NCBI GenBank assembly: GCA_001821765.1
Contig: MHOA01000001.1
Coordinates: forward strand, 1,580 to 65,579
Direction: 5' to 3'
DNA: 64,000 nt
Source: Candidatus Ryanbacteria bacterium RIFCSPLOWO2_12_FULL_44_26
GTDB taxonomy: Bacteria; Patescibacteriota; Minisyncoccia; Ryanbacterales; HO2-45-13
Shown here: piece after piece, positions 10,747 through 31,030 of the stretch
Layout of the letters: each line of letters opens with the position of its first letter
Position numbering within the stretch: position 1 is the first letter of the stretch
Translations under genes and position numbers: made by a program
Notes under the pieces: model-generated
Told to the model about the DNA's origin: nothing
Databases searched by the model: none
The model's input: the letters and a program-made list of their open reading frames with translations, nothing else

Positions 10747-10977
10747 AAAAACTGTTTTTGTGAAAGGGTTGCGGTTGCTGGTGAATAGAAGGTTGTTTGT
10801 GACATCTGTCCAACGATGAGAGATAAAACATTTTACATGTGGGAGACAAGTTTATGCGCGAATATAAAAAAGTTTCCCCTATTATCCACCGTAATAAAAA
10901 AGCCCTGTCAGGCCCTTTGGATGGATTTTTGCTCAAACAGGGTATCAACGGCCCATGCGATTTGTTGCTTGCCGTTT

Positions 10978-11006
10978 CGGTGTCTTTGTTCTACAATATA
11001 TCCAGA
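10978..11006 (+). promoter_or_regulatory. Sigma70-like promoter (TTGCCG-17-TACAAT)
   Basis: Read from sequence; 14 nt upstream of GGAG RBS and ATG at 11020. Confidence 0.45.
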
Positions 11007-11019
11007 AAGGAGAAAAACC

Positions 11020-11223
11020 ATGCAACAGCGGGCATGTTTTGTGTGCGGAACTCCTATAAATAGCTGTTTTGGTTATGTGCTTGCCGGTGATTTCATTCAA
11101 GCACTGAATGGTCTGCTGGAATGGACAAAAGTTCGGGAGTTATGTGGGAAGTGTGTGGAAAAATATGAGTGGGAAAAAAGCGCAGGAAATATGAAAGGGA
11201 AAAAAGTGCAGGAGAAAGGATAG
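11020..11223 (+). CDS. Small Cys-rich zinc-ribbon-like protein (67 aa)
   Basis: GGAG RBS; CFVCG...CGKC two CxxC pairs; terminator hairpin directly after stop. Confidence 0.4.
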   Translation: MQQRACFVCGTPINSCFGYVLAGDFIQALNGLLEWTKVRELCGKCVEKYEWEKSAGNMKGKKVQEKG

Positions 11224-12745: not shown

Positions 12746-12775
12746 AAAAAGCGAGGGGTTGACTCGCTTTTTGTA
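12746..12775 (+). terminator. Rho-independent terminator
   Basis: AAAAAGCGAG-gggttgac-CTCGCTTTTT. Confidence 0.6.
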
Positions 12776-12789
12776 CTGTGATACGCTTG

Positions 12790-13062
12790 TTTCAGCGGTG
12801 GTGGTTCTGTGCCAAGAGACGGCGTTCGGAGGGGAACCCTCTCTCCCCACTTCCCTACGGGGAAACCCGTATTCCCCTCGGAGGTCTTTCTTTTTTGGCA
12901 CGGGGCCACCACCCACCAGCTCTCTGACGATTGAGAGTTTTGTGACAGGCGTGTCTCCTTTAAAGGACACATTGCCCGAAATGTCGAGGCCTGTTGCCTT
13001 GCCCTTGGTAATGTTTCTTAAAAAAGCGTGAAAACGCGGAAACCTCTTACCAAGGGCTTTTT
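12790..13062 (+). ncRNA. Candidate structured non-coding RNA (unassigned family), GC-rich with GNRA-capped hairpins
   Basis: No convincing ORF; nested pairings GGTGGTGG...CCACCACC, CGGG-GAAA-CCCG, GAGGG-GAA-CCCTC, CTCTC...GAGAG, GTGTC...GACAC; ends in CCCTTGGTAA...TTACCAAGGG + TTTTTT. Confidence 0.3.
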
Positions 13063-13380
13063 TATTTAATGTTTCCCTCATGCTTGTGTAAGATGAGCAT
13101 AGAACATTTGATTAAAATCAAAGAAGATACAAACCCAAAAGGTAAAGAACAAACAGCGCTAGAGAAAGTAAGAAAAAAATTTCCTGCTGTTGTTGAATTA
13201 GAACTTTACCGAATTACAGATGGACGGATTAGTTTTTTACCTTAAACTCTTTATATATCAAGGAATATAATATCTTTATCAAATTTATCCACAGAAATTT
13301 CTTGACATTTTTTCATATTTATTATCCTATGTAATATAATAAAAGTGTCCTAGAATTAGGATGCCCAAGTGGGCTTAAGA

Positions 13381-13421
13381 GCCCCCCGTGAGCGTTAAGC
13401 GGTCGCGGGGGGCATTTTTTT
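13381..13421 (+). terminator. Rho-independent terminator (GCCCCCCG...CGGGGGGC + T7)
   Basis: 8-bp GC stem followed by ATTTTTTT; lies ~75 nt downstream of a TTGACA box at 13303. Confidence 0.55.
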
Positions 13422-13550: not shown

Positions 13551-14708
13551 TTAATCAAGGTGCATTGACAGTTTTGCTTTTCCTCTCTTGACCCGCCGTT
13601 TATGTTTTTCAAACGGCATGTCTCTTCTGTGTCTTTCCCTGTATTTCTTGTACTTGAATTGGATGTTCAGCGACAACTGTTCGCTTTGTGGTTCAGTTCT
13701 GTGTCGTGAAAGAAATTCGGAAACAACGTGTTCCCTAAAGGCGTCGGTGTCAGCATTTTGCGGCTGGCGAAAAGGGCATATTTGTTCAAACTTGCACGAT
13801 GAACAGTAAGGGCCGGGCCTTGGAACAAAGTGCCCTCTCTCCACGTCTTCCGGGTTTAGAAACCGAAACGGCAGTTCTCTCGCGCGCGGCGAATCTGGCG
13901 CGAGAATGTTTTGGACTTTGGCTCTGGCTTCGTCAAAAAGACATTCCAGGTTGTAGAAGTGGTATTTATTTCTCAGGGGCACTTCCACGATTTCTTGTCT
14001 GGCAAGCAGCAGCGCTCGCATTTTTTCCGGCACGATGCCAAATTTGTGCCAGAGGGCATATTGGATAACGGTAAACTGGAGGTCACGCACCGCTTTTTCT
14101 TCTGGAAAGGAGGCCATACCGGTTTTATAGTCGTCAACGATAAAACCGCCATGTTCGATCGGCTGTTTCCTGTCGATAATACACACCAGACGTATGCCTG
14201 TTGGGGTCTCAATTCTCACTTCTTCTTCAACGGTCGGGGCAAGAGGATGTGGCGGCAGAAGGTAACGATTCTCATCCCAGAATCTGGAAAGGATATGGTG
14301 TCCGCGGCCGAAATGTACTCCGGGCTCTTTTCCATTCCGTCCCTCGGGCATTCTCCAGCGTATCGGATCTTTTCCATCAGGCGATATCGGGTATTGGTAT
14401 GTAAGAATGCTTCCAAACCATTCACCTCTCCATTTTTTCAGAAAATCTTCTTTGCTCTTGCATGGTTTTGTAAAAAACAGCTCCAGTCTTTTATGAATGG
14501 CTCTTCCGGCTATCAGTTCAATGGGCTCCGGAACGGGCGGGTCGGGTGGGTCTATATACTCTAAGCGAAACTGTTCTCCGCACGGCTCCAATCTTCCAAG
14601 TTTCGTTACACTCCATTCTTCCCACATCCTTTTTTTCTGTGCAGGTGTTCGAAGCCGCCACGGCGTCTTCGGTCTAACCTTTTTCGGATCGGCGTTTTTA
14701 ATAGTCAT
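13551..14708 (-). CDS. Cas4-like PD-(D/E)XK nuclease with 4-Cys Fe-S cluster motif (stand-alone, no CRISPR context)
   Basis: N-terminal Cys (EPCGEQF), catalytic IVDDYKTG (D..D/ExK), C-terminal CSSCKFEQIC (Cx2Cx5C) as in Cas4/AddB nuclease domain; very basic C-terminal tail. Confidence 0.6.
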   Translation of the reverse strand: MTIKNADPKKVRPKTPWRLRTPAQKKRMWEEWSVTKLGRLEPCGEQFRLEYIDPPDPPVPEPIELIAGRAIHKRLELFFTKPCKSKEDFLKKWRGEWFGSILTYQYPISPDGKDPIRWRMPEGRNGKEPGVHFGRGHHILSRFWDENRYLLPPHPLAPTVEEEVRIETPTGIRLVCIIDRKQPIEHGGFIVDDYKTGMASFPEEKAVRDLQFTVIQYALWHKFGIVPEKMRALLLARQEIVEVPLRNKYHFYNLECLFDEARAKVQNILAPDSPRARELPFRFLNPEDVERGHFVPRPGPYCSSCKFEQICPFRQPQNADTDAFREHVVSEFLSRHRTEPQSEQLSLNIQFKYKKYRERHRRDMPFEKHKRRVKRGKAKLSMHLD

Positions 14709-14794
14709 GTTTCCGTCCTTTTAATTTGAAGGTTCGTCCTTTTAGAGAGTACGAAAAATAACCACGATATGCAAATAAAAACACCTCTGATATT

Positions 14795-15145
14795 TCACAG
14801 AGGTGATGTTTCAGCCAAGAAGGCATGTGTGTCAACTCTTTCAAGGGAACACAATATATCGTTTCCCATGACGCAGATACTGTTTTTAAGGGACTTTTTC
14901 TTTGCCAATGAGCATGTCTCGAGCCGTCCGTTTAATCGCGCCTCAAGCGTGTCAAGGTTGATAATAACCCCGTTCCGTTCCAGCGCTTTGTCGATCCCAA
15001 ACACGATCTCCTTATAATTTCTATACTTCTGTATATGTGTAAAACATATGTGTTCAAAGCAATCATATGGAAGTCGGTGTTGGTGTAGAATTCTTTCTAT
15101 GTCGTTTTGTATCCTTTCAAGAACGCGTTTGGAGGGTGTTTTCAT
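14795..15145 (-). CDS. Hypothetical protein co-oriented upstream of Cas4-like nuclease
   Basis: Internal Met (MKTPSKRVLERIQ) preceded by AAGGGGGAAA RBS; ~116 aa, no known domain. Confidence 0.4.
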   Translation of the reverse strand: MKTPSKRVLERIQNDIERILHQHRLPYDCFEHICFTHIQKYRNYKEIVFGIDKALERNGVIINLDTLEARLNGRLETCSLAKKKSLKNSICVMGNDILCSLERVDTHAFLAETSPL

Positions 15146-15243
15146 TGCTATTTCCCCCTTTCTTTTTATACGATAAAGCAAACAGGCCAACTGTCAATAG
15201 CACCGGGTAAAGTGCCAGCAGTGTTTGTGCATCGCCCCATCAG

Positions 15244-30247: not shown

Positions 30248-31030
30248 ATGTCGCATTTGCGTCATTTGATGCGTGTTGATGCAGATATTTATATGCGAAA
30301 AGGAAACCTTTTTGATCCATTGTCCAATAAGTCTTATCGGTTAAGCAGAACCAAGCTCGAACTGTTTATGAATTGCCCGCGCTGTTTTTATCTTGACAGG
30401 CGTTTCGGCATTAAACAGCCTGCCGGGTATCCATTCAATCTCAATGCCGCAGTTGATTTTTTGTTAAAGAAAGAATTTGACATTCATCGCGCCAAGGGCA
30501 AGGTGCATCCATTATTGAAAGAGAGGGGGATTGAAGCAATCCCTTTTTCCCATGATGAACTTGACGAATGGAGGGAAAATTTTAAAGGTGTACGGTATCT
30601 GCATACCCCGACGAATTTTCTTGTAACAGGAGCAGTGGATGATGTATGGTATGATGTAAACAAGGAACTCATCGTTGTTGATTATAAAGCCACGAGCAAG
30701 AATGCAAAAGTTACAATTGATGAACCGTGGCAGGATAGCTATAAGCGCCAGATGGAGGTATATCAGTGGCTTTTAAGAAGAAAGGGTTTTCGGGTGTCGG
30801 ATGTCGGCTATTTTGTATATTGCAATGCAAAGAGAAATAAAAGAACATTCGGAGGAAAATTGGAATTTGATATCGACATTATTCCGTATCAGGGACGTGA
30901 TAACTGGGTTGAGGGTATTCTTTATGAAATCCGGCAATGTCTTACAGGCGGTCTTCCGTCGTATAACGAGCTGTGTCCGCATTGTAATTATAGGAGGGCG
31001 TCTCAACAGGTTGAAGCTTATGAGGAATAG
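30248..31030 (+). CDS. Cas4-like/RecB-family PD-(D/E)XK nuclease with Cys pairs at both ends (second copy in window)
   Basis: N-term CPRC, core LIVVDYKAT (D-x-K), C-term CPHC; 260 aa. Confidence 0.5.
   Translation: MSHLRHLMRVDADIYMRKGNLFDPLSNKSYRLSRTKLELFMNCPRCFYLDRRFGIKQPAGYPFNLNAAVDFLLKKEFDIHRAKGKVHPLLKERGIEAIPFSHDELDEWRENFKGVRYLHTPTNFLVTGAVDDVWYDVNKELIVVDYKATSKNAKVTIDEPWQDSYKRQMEVYQWLLRRKGFRVSDVGYFVYCNAKRNKRTFGGKLEFDIDIIPYQGRDNWVEGILYEIRQCLTGGLPSYNELCPHCNYRRASQQVEAYEE

What the first reader, a model, noticed from the sequence alone, without database searches (positions are those of the whole stretch)
13551..15145. Stand-alone Cas4-like Fe-S nuclease with a partner ORF, flanked by terminators, no CRISPR-Cas context
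The 385-aa protein has the full Cas4/AddB-type signature: an N-terminal Cys, PD-(D/E)XK core IVDDYKTG and C-terminal Cx2Cx5C. It also has an extremely basic C-terminal tail.

A 116-aa unknown ORF lies immediately upstream on the same strand. The pair sits in an accessory-looking pocket (small RNAs, small proteins) and has its own terminator.

No cas1/cas2 or repeat array is present anywhere in the window. Solitary Cas4 homologues occur in phages and in defence or anti-defence contexts. A second Cas4-like gene lies at 30248-31030.
Basis: partly seen in the sequence, partly recalled or inferred. Interest (0 to 1): 0.55.

Follow-up and report, generated by a model that had tools for sequence, protein, structure and literature searches.

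The report
Stand-alone RecB-type iron-sulfur nuclease
This is a real but fairly ordinary stand-alone DNA-cutting enzyme of the RecB/AddB/Cas4 type in the chromosome of a small-genome groundwater bacterium; it has no link to CRISPR, phages or its neighbouring gene, and its most interesting feature is a tail that looks built to dock onto the DNA sliding clamp.

Summary
ORF 13551-14708 (-) encodes a 385-aa PD-(D/E)XK nuclease with C43, D179, D193-Y194-K195, Q211/Y215, C302-x2-C305-x5-C311 and a tail of net charge about +11.

It is not a Cas4 family member. It matches PF12705 (PDDEXK_1) over the full profile, while Cas4 models touch only the Cys motif. The closest solved structures are the AdnA/AdnB nuclease domains.

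The window is housekeeping chromosome of a Candidatus Ryanbacteria (CPR) MAG. It has no cas genes, repeat array, prophage, integrase or defence genes.

The 116-aa "partner" is an orphan with its own promoter-like site and a terminator hairpin before the nuclease gene. It is absent from every relative examined.

The nuclease belongs to a rare clade of 31 cluster representatives (E<1e-10 among 1.8 billion). Members sit alone among housekeeping genes, in some lineages next to uvrD, lexA, polX-rarA or mraZ.

New here: the clade has a conserved motif about 30 residues after the last Cys that fits the beta-clamp-binding consensus. It occurs in 12 of 24 tails against 0.7 expected. The query has QLSLNI in a predicted disordered stretch.

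Best reading: a clamp-tethered repair or replication nuclease. The clamp and repair steps are inference.

Solo Cas4-like genes in CPR were already described in 2017.

The parts
13551..14708 (-). CDS of the 385-aa stand-alone PD-(D/E)XK / [4Fe-4S]-type nuclease (PF12705, RecB/AddB/AdnAB-like; 'Cas4-like' in the broad sense)
   Evidence: ORF. PF12705 at E 7e-17 over the full profile. AF2 model with pLDDT 85. Foldseek best hits are the AdnA nuclease domain at 7.6e-10, then ACE1, RecE, AddAB, Cas4, Dna2 and EXO5.
14580..14582 (-). Codon of C43, the N-terminal ligand of the predicted Fe-S cluster
   Evidence: Nearly invariant in the 25-sequence alignment.
14124..14132 (-). Codons of D193-Y194-K195, the (D/E)xK catalytic motif within IVDDYKTG. 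The motif II Asp, D179, is at 14172-14174.
   Evidence: Invariant columns in alignments A1 and A5. Sequence read.
14064..14078 (-). Codons of Q211-Y215 (QFTVIQY region), the QhxxY motif of RecB-family nucleases
   Evidence: Q211 and Y215 are nearly invariant.
13776..13805 (-). Codons of C302-x2-C305-x5-C311 (CSSCKFEQIC), the C-terminal Fe-S ligands
   Evidence: C302 and C305 are invariant and C311 is conserved in at least 90% of sequences. This is the only stretch that Cas4 models match.
13662..13679 (-). Codons of Q344-I349 (QLSLNI), a predicted beta-clamp-binding motif in a disordered linker
   Evidence: pLDDT is below 50 for residues 337-354. A motif at the homologous position, about 28-32 residues after the last Cys, fits the published CBM consensus in 12 of 24 family tails against 0.68 expected. 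The consensus comes from PMC11139829.
13572..13655 (-). Codons of K352-K379, the strongly basic tail. It includes the conserved D-x-x-F-EKHKR-x4-GK module and a predicted helix at residues 365-374.
   Evidence: D363, E367-K368-H369-K370-R371 and G376 are invariant in the closest subclade. pLDDT is 77-86 for residues 360-380.
13557..13574 (-). Codons of K379-L384 (KLSMHL), a degenerate second clamp-motif-like C-terminal peptide. It aligns with QLSMNL, QLSWLL and QLSWKL in the closest homologues.
   Evidence: Alignment A5 and motif positions. The query has K in place of the usual Q.
14795..15145 (-). Upstream 116-aa ORF (the 'partner'). It is an orphan hypothetical protein and probably a separate transcription unit.
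   Evidence: ORF. No family in Pfam, NCBIfam, PADLOC or PHROGs. Only itself found among 5.8 billion clusters. It does not align with the small upstream ORFs of relatives. AF2 pLDDT is 54.7.
14772..14805 (-). Intrinsic-terminator-like hairpin plus U-run at the end of the 116-aa ORF, 64 nt before the nuclease start codon
   Evidence: Terminator scan. Fold of -15 kcal/mol, z -3.3.
15170..15197 (-). Promoter-like site (TTGACA-16-TATCGT) upstream of the 116-aa ORF
   Evidence: Consensus scan, 10 of 12 matches. This is a consensus match only.
13381..13413 (.). GC-rich hairpin about 135 nt downstream of the nuclease stop. The U7 run is on the + strand only, so it is probably the terminator of a small + strand RNA (13345-13420) and at best a weak stop for the nuclease transcript.
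   Evidence: Folds of both strands. Sequence.

Best explanation
The gene encodes a chromosomal, stand-alone nuclease of the RecB/AddB/AdnAB type (PF12705). Four cysteines (C43, C302, C305, C311) are predicted to hold a [4Fe-4S] cluster that clamps the N-terminal helix onto the C-terminal part of the core. D179, D193 and K195 are predicted to form the metal-dependent active site.

By analogy with AdnAB, AddB, Cas4, Dna2 and EXO5, it should thread and cut single-stranded DNA ends or flaps.

I propose that its disordered C-terminal tail recruits it. The QLSLNI peptide would dock into the hydrophobic pocket of the beta sliding clamp left on DNA at forks or repair patches. The adjacent K/R-rich segment would hold DNA.

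The enzyme would then trim DNA ends, flaps or gaps during replication-associated repair or recombination. A helicase encoded elsewhere would probably assist; in one relative a uvrD gene lies immediately upstream.

It does not work with CRISPR and does not depend on the upstream 116-aa ORF.

Shown: fold, motifs, family, context, and conservation of the tail motif. Inferred: Fe-S binding, substrate, clamp binding and the repair role.
For: Family and fold:
- PF12705 full-length match. Catalytic and Cys residues are invariant across the clade.
- AF2 model pLDDT 85. The nearest solved structures are the AdnA/AdnB nuclease domains, by fold (7.6e-10, 295 columns) and by profile (1e-6).

Context of the window:
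- It is housekeeping chromosome of a Ryanbacteria MAG: type IV pilus, TGT, YchF, glycolysis and pentose-phosphate genes, ribosomal proteins, EF-Ts, ClpB.
- The identical gene and context occur on more than 20 contigs of the population.

Context of relatives, all among housekeeping genes:
- lexA, a 139-aa gene, then divergently uvrD and the nuclease, then the mraZ/dcw cluster (L012).
- Nuclease followed by the mraZ/dcw cluster (L105).
- lexA 2 kb away (L013).
- polX, rarA, a small ORF, then the nuclease (L008/L009).

Tail motif:
- The published CBM patterns Q-phi-x-[LM]-[FL] and Q-phi-x-[LM]-x-[FL] (PMC11139829) match 12 of 24 tails of the closest clusters. Composition-matched shuffles give 0.68, and 0 of 2000 shuffles reach 12.
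- The motif sits at a fixed distance of about 29-32 residues from the last Cys, and often within 4 residues of the C-terminus (QLLLF, QLRLF, QLKLF, QLELPF, QLELGF).
- It is absent from more distant PF12705 proteins (2 of 51, not significant).
- It is absent from the two members with archaeal context, which would use PCNA.
- In the query it lies in a segment with pLDDT below 50, as expected for a short linear motif.

Literature:
- Unfused uvrD plus Cas4-like operons in non-defence contexts have been read as repair (PMC5704561).
Against: - No experiment or complex model supports clamp binding.
- The query's motif ends in Ile. The review describes Ile as tolerated at that position, but it is outside the strict consensus. 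The query's second motif has K in place of Q.
- The sequences are related, so the motif counts are not independent events.
- The window itself has no repair gene next to the nuclease.
- The clade is rare and patchy. The closest homologue is only 42% identical, and no orthologue at 50-90% identity turned up although about 20 other Ryanbacteria taxa are listed in NCBI taxonomy. This is unusual for a core repair gene.
- The surrounding 4 kb is full of orphan small ORFs.
- Phage RecB-family exonucleases match as well as AdnAB does in fold space.
Confidence: 0.5

Rival explanations
1. It is a leftover or domesticated exonuclease from a phage or other mobile element. It would be a RecE- or Cas4-like recombination exonuclease sitting in a decayed insertion made of orphan small genes.
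For: - phrog_69 'exonuclease' matches at 2.8e-13.
- BFVD fold hits to phage RecB-family exonucleases (COG2887) reach E about 1e-11 with target TM-score up to 0.74.
- The distribution is patchy and no close orthologues were found.
- The neighbours from 10.8 to 15.2 kb are orphans without families.
- Clamp-binding motifs also occur in transposases (title and abstract of PMC4549789, listed).
Against: - The 64 kb holds no integrase, transposase, or phage structural or replication gene.
- No tRNA gene lies nearby.
- No flanking att-like repeats were found, and GC content shows no marked step in the 2-kb or 200-base profiles.
- tblastn against 50,697 phage records finds nothing.
- Nine relatives' contexts are housekeeping. 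None is viral, and the only mobile-element genes there are a phage-type integrase 3 kb from the nuclease on L009 and a truncated rve transposase at the far end of L014.
Confidence: 0.17
2. It is a defence or anti-defence nuclease. It could be a solo Cas4-like effector or accessory working with an unrecognised partner, such as the 116-aa ORF or the small RNAs nearby. This would resemble the Argonaute-associated ACE1 or the RM-linked solo-Cas4 genes of DPANN archaea.
For: - ACE1 is the second-best structural match at 1.9e-8.
- Solo-Cas4 genes in DPANN sometimes lie next to RM systems, and defence roles have been suggested for small-genome microbes (PMC5704561).
- The adjacent region holds unexplained structured RNAs and orphan ORFs.
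Against: - No Argonaute, RM, helicase or other PADLOC family is in the window or in any relative's context.
- The partner ORF is not conserved.
- A terminator-like hairpin separates the two genes.
- The conserved tail motif points to the replisome clamp.
Confidence: 0.13
3. It is a true Cas4 that serves, in trans, a CRISPR adaptation module encoded elsewhere in the genome.
For: - It has the four-Cys plus RecB-motif architecture shared with Cas4.
- Weak Cas4 model hits fall on the Cys motif.
Against: - PF01930 gives no hit, and TIGR00372 scores 13.9 bits against a cut-off of 65.
- Cas4 structures rank below AdnAB, ACE1, RecE and AddAB.
- No cas gene or array lies within 64 kb.
- CPR genomes rarely carry CRISPR-Cas, and PF12705 proteins are not CRISPR-linked (PMC6509639 abstract; PMC5704561).
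Confidence: 0.03

Closest known systems
PF12705 (PDDEXK_1) / COG2887 'RecB family exonuclease': the 'Cas4-like proteins of pfam12705' of Hudaiberdiev et al. 2017 (PMC5704561)
   Same: Full-length profile match above the gathering score. Same catalytic and four-Cys motifs. Not linked to CRISPR. Stand-alone genes occur in small-genome CPR bacteria and DPANN archaea. An occasional operon link to a UvrD helicase is seen in one relative (L012).
   Different: It forms a rare, divergent clade: 31 cluster representatives at E<1e-10, the closest at 42% identity. It carries a roughly 75-residue C-terminal extension with a conserved clamp-binding-like motif and a basic tail. I found no description of this in the papers searched.
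Nuclease domains of mycobacterial AdnAB, and of AddAB/RecBCD, the helicase-nucleases that resect double-strand breaks
   Same: Closest solved structures by fold (9np6_A, 6ppr_A, 6ppu_A; E 1e-9 to 1e-10, about 295 aligned columns) and by profile (E 1e-6). Same RecB-type core; AddB also shares the four-Cys Fe-S arrangement.
   Different: There is no helicase domain (385 aa in all) and no helicase gene in the 64-kb window. Only about 17-18% identity.
CRISPR-associated Cas4 (PF01930 / TIGR00372)
   Same: PD-(D/E)XK core with one N-terminal and three C-terminal cysteines. Small, single-domain protein.
   Different: Cas4 models fail except on the Cys motif. It has a roughly 65-residue helical insertion (about residues 86-150) and long N- and C-terminal extensions. 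No cas1, cas2 or array is present.
NucS/EndoMS, a PD-(D/E)XK mismatch endonuclease with a C-terminal sliding-clamp-binding motif
   Same: Works-like analogy only: a small stand-alone PD-(D/E)XK nuclease tethered to the sliding clamp by a C-terminal peptide. That NucS binds the clamp is from my own knowledge.
   Different: A different PD-(D/E)XK subfamily, with no Fe-S cluster and a distinct N-terminal DNA-binding domain. Foldseek finds only a marginal match of 120 columns (2vld, E 0.036).
ACE1, Argonaute-associated Cas4 family enzyme 1 (PDB 9iab, 9iac)
   Same: Second-best structural neighbour (E 1.9e-8). Stand-alone Cas4-like Fe-S nuclease outside CRISPR loci.
   Different: No Argonaute gene lies nearby, here or in the relatives. 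Sequence similarity is marginal (profile E 1e-3).

Membership tests
Cas4 (PF01930 / TIGR00372, CRISPR-associated) | Match to a Cas4 profile at or above its curated cut-off | tested here: not met
   PF01930 gives no hit. TIGR00372 scores 13.9 bits against a cut-off of 65 and covers residues 294-312 only. PADLOC Cas4 models reach E >= 0.005 on the same stretch.
Cas4 (PF01930 / TIGR00372, CRISPR-associated) | Located in or next to a cas1-cas2 adaptation module or a CRISPR array | tested here: not met
   No cas domains in the Pfam map of the 64 kb. No repeat array. None in nine relatives' contexts. The rest of the genome could not be seen.
Cas4 (PF01930 / TIGR00372, CRISPR-associated) | RecB-type motifs plus a 1+3 cysteine Fe-S signature | tested here: met
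   C43, D179, D193-x-K195, Q211/Y215 and C302-x2-C305-x5-C311 are conserved in the clade. This feature is shared with AddB, Dna2 and EXO5, so it is not specific to Cas4.
PF12705 PDDEXK_1 / COG2887 RecB-family exonuclease | Profile match above the gathering score over the whole domain | tested here: met
   62.6 bits against a cut-off of 22, E 7e-17, profile positions 1-247 of 247, residues 31-312.
PF12705 PDDEXK_1 / COG2887 RecB-family exonuclease | RecB-like nuclease fold | tested here: met
   AF2 pLDDT 85, pTM 0.76. Foldseek hits in order: AdnA, ACE1, RecE, AddAB, Cas4, Dna2, EXO5. Phage COG2887 proteins match at E about 1e-11.
PF12705 PDDEXK_1 / COG2887 RecB-family exonuclease | Metal-dependent DNA nuclease activity and a bound Fe-S cluster | not testable with these tools
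   Needs purified protein.
AddAB / AdnAB / RecBCD helicase-nuclease | Nuclease domain fused to, or encoded next to, an SF1 helicase | tested here: not met
   The protein is 385 aa with no helicase domain. The annotated ORFs of the window contain no helicase gene. One relative (L012) has uvrD 40 bp upstream.
Beta-sliding-clamp ligands (clamp-binding motif, CBM) | A Q-phi-x-[LM]-[FL] or Q-phi-x-[LM]-x-[FL] peptide in a disordered or terminal region | tested here: inconclusive
   The query has QLSLNI (residues 344-349) in a region with pLDDT below 50. Ile at the last position is reported as tolerated but lies outside the strict consensus (PMC11139829). The strict motif is present at the homologous position in 12 of 24 clade tails against 0.68 expected.
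Beta-sliding-clamp ligands (clamp-binding motif, CBM) | Physical binding to the clamp's hydrophobic pocket | not testable with these tools
Phage RecB-like / Cas4-like exonuclease (phrog_69) | Profile match to the phage family | tested here: met
   phrog_69 at E 2.8e-13, residues 30-324.
Phage RecB-like / Cas4-like exonuclease (phrog_69) | Encoded in a phage or prophage genome | tested here: not met
   No phage genes in the 64 kb. No tblastn match in 50,697 phage records.
ACE1 (Argonaute-associated Cas4 family enzyme) | Adjacent prokaryotic Argonaute gene | tested here: not met
   No Piwi or Argonaute domain in the window or in relatives' contexts.

The most novel reading that the evidence does not exclude
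This rare clade of CPR bacteria is a previously unrecognised class of sliding-clamp-tethered Cas4-like Fe-S nucleases. A minimal RecB-type nuclease would be delivered to forks or repair patches by a C-terminal clamp-binding peptide plus a basic DNA-binding tail. In these reduced genomes it would take over end or flap processing that AddAB, RecBCD, AdnAB or Dna2-like enzymes perform elsewhere. Lineages with uvrD or lexA next to the gene would show the ancestral repair link.
Probability: 0.35. Interest if true: 0.55.

Novelty: new member of a known kind. Interest (0 to 1): 0.35.

Why it matters
Solo Cas4-like genes are over-represented in CPR bacteria and DPANN archaea that lack CRISPR, and their role is an acknowledged open question (PMC5704561).

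A conserved clamp-binding-type peptide in one such clade gives a concrete hypothesis that is cheap to test: these are replisome- or repair-associated nucleases, not defence genes. It would also add a nuclease class to the rather short list of bacterial beta-clamp partners.

For annotation, the lesson is practical. A four-Cys PD-(D/E)XK protein should not be called Cas4 without a Cas4 profile match and cas context.

Tried and rejected
1. Word-indexed homologue searches, with the single protein and with a 25-sequence profile, found almost nothing. Only the exhaustive HMMER scan recovered the family.
With the single protein it found nothing in GTDB representatives. With the subclade alignment in metagenomes it found only distant PF12705 proteins, which I did not analyse.
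3. I tested synteny through the neighbouring TGT gene. Eighty loci were fetched, and none of the CPR loci shares any gene order with the window. Only one archaeal locus (L040) has a distant family member near TGT. The 'accessory pocket' idea therefore could not be tested this way.
4. Conserved partner ORF. The small upstream ORFs of L007 and L008 resemble each other at 29% identity. The window's 116-aa ORF and the 137-aa ORF of L014 do not resemble them, and five other contexts have none. Rejected.
5. A shared SOS-box-like element. L012 and L013 share ACCGAAGAAAAACCGAARGTCAA near the nuclease unit, but the window has no copy within 3 mismatches. It is not applicable to this locus.
6. Using the protein body as a control for the motif regex was invalid, because the loose regex also hits the core QhxxY motif. 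I used shuffled tails and the strict published pattern instead.
8. The single-sequence AF2 model of the partner was too poor to search with, at pLDDT 54.7.
9. Rfam found nothing for the nearby structured RNAs.
Full report
**The object**

The minus strand of the window carries an ATG-initiated ORF at 13551..14708 encoding 385 aa. An AGGA lies about 8 nt before the start.
- C43.
- D179-R180.
- IVDDYKTG, with D193-Y194-K195.
- Q211 and Y215.
- CSSCKFEQIC (C302, C305, C311).
- A C-terminal 34 residues with 15 K/R against 4 D/E.

In a 25-sequence alignment of homologues these residues are invariant or nearly so. The signature is therefore real and under selection.

**Family**

- Pfam gives PF12705 (PDDEXK_1) at E 7e-17, 62.6 bits against a cut-off of 22, covering the whole profile.
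- Cas4 models do not match. PF01930 is absent. TIGR00372 gives 13.9 bits against a cut-off of 65, on residues 294-312 only. The PADLOC Cas4 models touch the same Cys stretch at E >= 0.005.
- An AlphaFold2 model built on the family alignment is confident: pLDDT 85, pTM 0.76.
- By Foldseek against the PDB, the best neighbours are the nuclease domain of mycobacterial AdnA (E 7.6e-10, about 295 columns). Next come ACE1, RecE, AddAB, type I-C Cas4, Dna2, EXO5 and SSO0001.
- A profile search of PDB sequences gives the same order: AdnA/AdnB at 1e-6, ACE1 at 1e-3, EXO5 at 0.04.
- Phage 'RecB family exonuclease / COG2887' models match equally well in fold space, and phrog_69 matches at 2.8e-13.

The protein is thus a member of the broad RecB/AddB-type PF12705 family. 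That is 'Cas4-like' only in the loose sense used by Hudaiberdiev et al. 2017. [quoted passage not shown]

**Organism and window**

- The identical protein lies on GCA_001819935.1 contig MHNU01000013.1 and on more than 20 other contigs of the same groundwater population, always in the same context.
- The neighbouring ORF is named by NCBI as coming from a Candidatus Ryanbacteria bacterium (RIFCSPHIGHO2_02_FULL...), which is Parcubacteria / CPR.
- A Pfam map of the 64 kb shows ordinary chromosome. It holds type IV pilus genes, a two-component system, an aminotransferase, TGT, YchF, an ABC transporter, a Na/H exchanger, two ExoIII-like genes, pentose-phosphate and glycolysis genes, L25, S2, EF-Ts, a release factor, HtrA, ClpB, NUDIX and GH130.
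- There is no integrase, transposase, phage, cas or defence gene.
- There is no CRISPR-like array.
- No tRNA gene lies nearby.
- No att-like repeats flank the 10-16 kb stretch.
- tblastn of the protein against 50,697 phage records finds nothing.

**The 'partner'**

- The 116-aa ORF (14795..15145, -) has its own promoter-like site (15170-15197).
- It ends inside a hairpin followed by TTTTTATTT (14772-14805; -15 kcal/mol, z -3.3). This lies 64 nt before the nuclease start. The two genes are more likely separate units than an operon.
- The ORF has no family in four libraries. It has no homologue other than itself among 5.8 billion clusters.
- Its single-sequence model is poor, at pLDDT 54.7.
- In relatives, small upstream ORFs occur in three contexts (L007, L008/L009, L014). 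Only the first two resemble each other, and none resembles the window's ORF. The other contexts have none.
- The pairing is therefore not a conserved feature.
- The hairpin downstream of the nuclease (13381-13413) has its U-run on the + strand. It looks like the terminator of a small + strand RNA.

**The clade and its contexts**

- An exhaustive HMMER scan of 1.84 billion cluster representatives found 147 hits at E<1e-3, 31 at E<1e-10 and 4 at E<1e-30. The closest is 42% identical. This is a rare, divergent clade.
- No orthologue at 50-90% identity appeared, although about 20 other Ryanbacteria taxa are listed in NCBI taxonomy. The gene is therefore patchy.
- Nine further contexts were recovered. 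In all of them the nuclease sits among housekeeping genes with no cas or defence gene; the only mobile-element genes are a phage-type integrase 3 kb away on L009 and a truncated rve transposase at the end of L014:
  - L012: lexA and a 139-aa gene, divergent from uvrD and the nuclease, followed by mraZ-rsmH-PBP-mur.
  - L105: nuclease followed by mraZ-rsmH-PBP-mur.
  - L013: lexA 2 kb upstream.
  - L008/L009: polX, rarA, a 107-aa ORF, then the nuclease.
  - L011 and L005: DUF763 nearby.
  - L014: glycolysis and hydrogenase genes.
  - L010: an archaeal contig with split RpoB, RpoH and GatD.
- Synteny around TGT is not conserved among the nearest CPR genomes available, whose TGT is 50-59% identical. 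Whether the 10.8-15.2 kb pocket is an insertion could not be tested.

**The tail**

- All close relatives extend beyond the last Cys. A motif lies at a fixed distance of about 28-32 residues after it: QLELPF, QLELGF, QLELCF, QLGLEF, QLTLPL, QLALPL, QLRLF, QLLLF, QLKLF. It is often within four residues of the C-terminus, and a K/R-rich run often follows.
- The published definition of canonical beta-clamp-binding motifs is Q-phi-x-[L/M]-[F/L] and Q-phi-x-[L/M]-x-[F/L], and Ile is reported as tolerated at the last position (PMC11139829).
- With exactly these patterns, 12 of 24 tails of the closest clusters match. Composition-matched shuffles give 0.68, with a maximum of 4 in 2000.
- The next tier has 5 of 32 against 0.64 expected. 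Distant PF12705 proteins have 2 of 51, which is not significant.
- The count is conservative. P0025 (QISLF) and P0028 (QLGLEF) were excluded only because their Cys spacing differs.
- Members with bacterial context carry the motif or a near-variant. The two with archaeal context do not.
- The query has QLSLNI at residues 344-349, in a segment with pLDDT below 50.
- After it comes a basic run with a subclade-invariant D-x-x-F-EKHKR-x4-GK module. The protein ends in KLSMHLD, which aligns with QLSMNL, QLSWLL and QLSWKL in its closest homologues.
- Caveats: the sequences are related, so the counts are not independent events. The query's motifs are near-canonical rather than canonical. Nothing here demonstrates binding.

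**Mechanism proposed**

Shown:
- A RecB-type nuclease core with intact catalytic residues and four conserved cysteines.
- A disordered C-terminal extension with a clade-conserved peptide of clamp-binding type and a basic segment.
- A chromosomal, non-CRISPR, non-phage context.
- Recurrent neighbourhood with uvrD, lexA, polX-rarA or mraZ in some relatives.

Inferred:
- The cysteines bind a [4Fe-4S] cluster, as in AddB, Cas4, Dna2 and EXO5.
- The enzyme cuts single-stranded ends or flaps.
- It is recruited by the beta clamp and held on DNA by the basic tail.
- It acts in replication-associated repair or recombination, with a helicase supplied in trans.

I put about 0.5 on this reading as a whole. 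I put about 0.95 on the narrower statement that it is a PF12705 Fe-S nuclease unconnected to CRISPR.

Rivals:
- A domesticated or decaying mobile-element exonuclease: 0.17.
- A defence or anti-defence nuclease: 0.13.
- A trans-acting Cas4: 0.03.

**Comparison with what is known**

Hudaiberdiev et al. already reported three relevant points (PMC5704561):
[quoted passage not shown] - UvrD plus Cas4-like operons in non-defence contexts suggest repair.

This window fits that picture. It even has a second, only remotely related nuclease at 30248-31030 among metabolic genes. I found no description of the clamp-motif tail in the literature searched.

I therefore class the finding as a new member of a known kind. 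A modest chance remains that the clade is a distinct clamp-tethered variant.

**Verdict**

- Interest is 0.35.

Noticed in passing
window 13312-13420 (+): A promoter-like site (TTCATA-17-TATAAT, 13312-13340) precedes a roughly 76-nt three-hairpin transcript that ends in a GC-rich stem plus U7. It folds at -43.3 kcal/mol, z -6.1. No Rfam family matches.
   Followed up: partly
window ~12775-13065 (+), core hairpin 12797-12920: A GC-rich (0.57) long imperfect hairpin of about 125 nt folds at -69.9 kcal/mol, z -4.95. A terminator-like stem plus T-run follows near 13040-13065. Rfam gives only sub-threshold noise (22 bits). The ORFs called here on both strands (126 aa on the - strand, 90 aa on the + strand) are probably spurious. 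This is likely an unclassified structured RNA.
   Followed up: partly
L012 5805-5830 and L013 7792-7816: Two relatives share the 23-nt element ACCGAAGAAAAACCGAARGTCAA beside the nuclease transcription unit. In L012 it lies in the divergent region between the lexA operon and uvrD-nuclease. On the opposite strand it reads as TTGAC(C/T), 16-17 nt, TATA(T/C)(A/T), with CGAA direct repeats in the spacer, so it may be a promoter with an operator. The window has no copy.
   Followed up: partly
window 30248-31030 (+): A second stand-alone PD-(D/E)XK nuclease of 260 aa: PF12705 at 8.9e-15, Cas4 TIGR00372 at 32 bits (below the cut-off of 65), phrog_31195 at 3e-18. It lies among metabolic genes (racemase, UPF0047, VTT, oxidoreductases). 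It is only remotely related to the first nuclease (hhalign E 6e-8) and has no C-terminal tail.
   Followed up: partly
family proteins P0023, P0031, P0036, P0037, P0045, P0060: Some clade members carry a conserved zinc-ribbon-like insert in the tail, TKYGRCxxCGYxLxKxGKCxNCxxWYD. The query lacks it.
   Followed up: no
distant PF12705 hits P0014, P0051, P0071, P0141: Several stand-alone nucleases end in peptides that resemble the acidic tip of SSB: DDVPF, DDLPF, QHLPF, EDVAF. This may be another kind of replisome-hub tether in this superfamily.
   Followed up: no
L010 (P0010) and L040 11893-13194: Clade members or distant relatives occur on archaeal (DPANN-like) contigs. This is consistent with the CPR-DPANN sharing of solo Cas4-like genes reported in 2017. 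These copies lack the clamp-type tail motif.
   Followed up: partly
window 11161-11212 (+): A 26-bp tandem duplication (2 copies, 88% match) lies at the 3' end of the 135-aa orphan ORF 10816..11223.
   Followed up: no
L005 455-1579 and L011 9745-10893: A DUF763 gene lies within 1-2 kb of the nuclease in two unrelated contexts. Whether this is more than chance was not tested.
   Followed up: no
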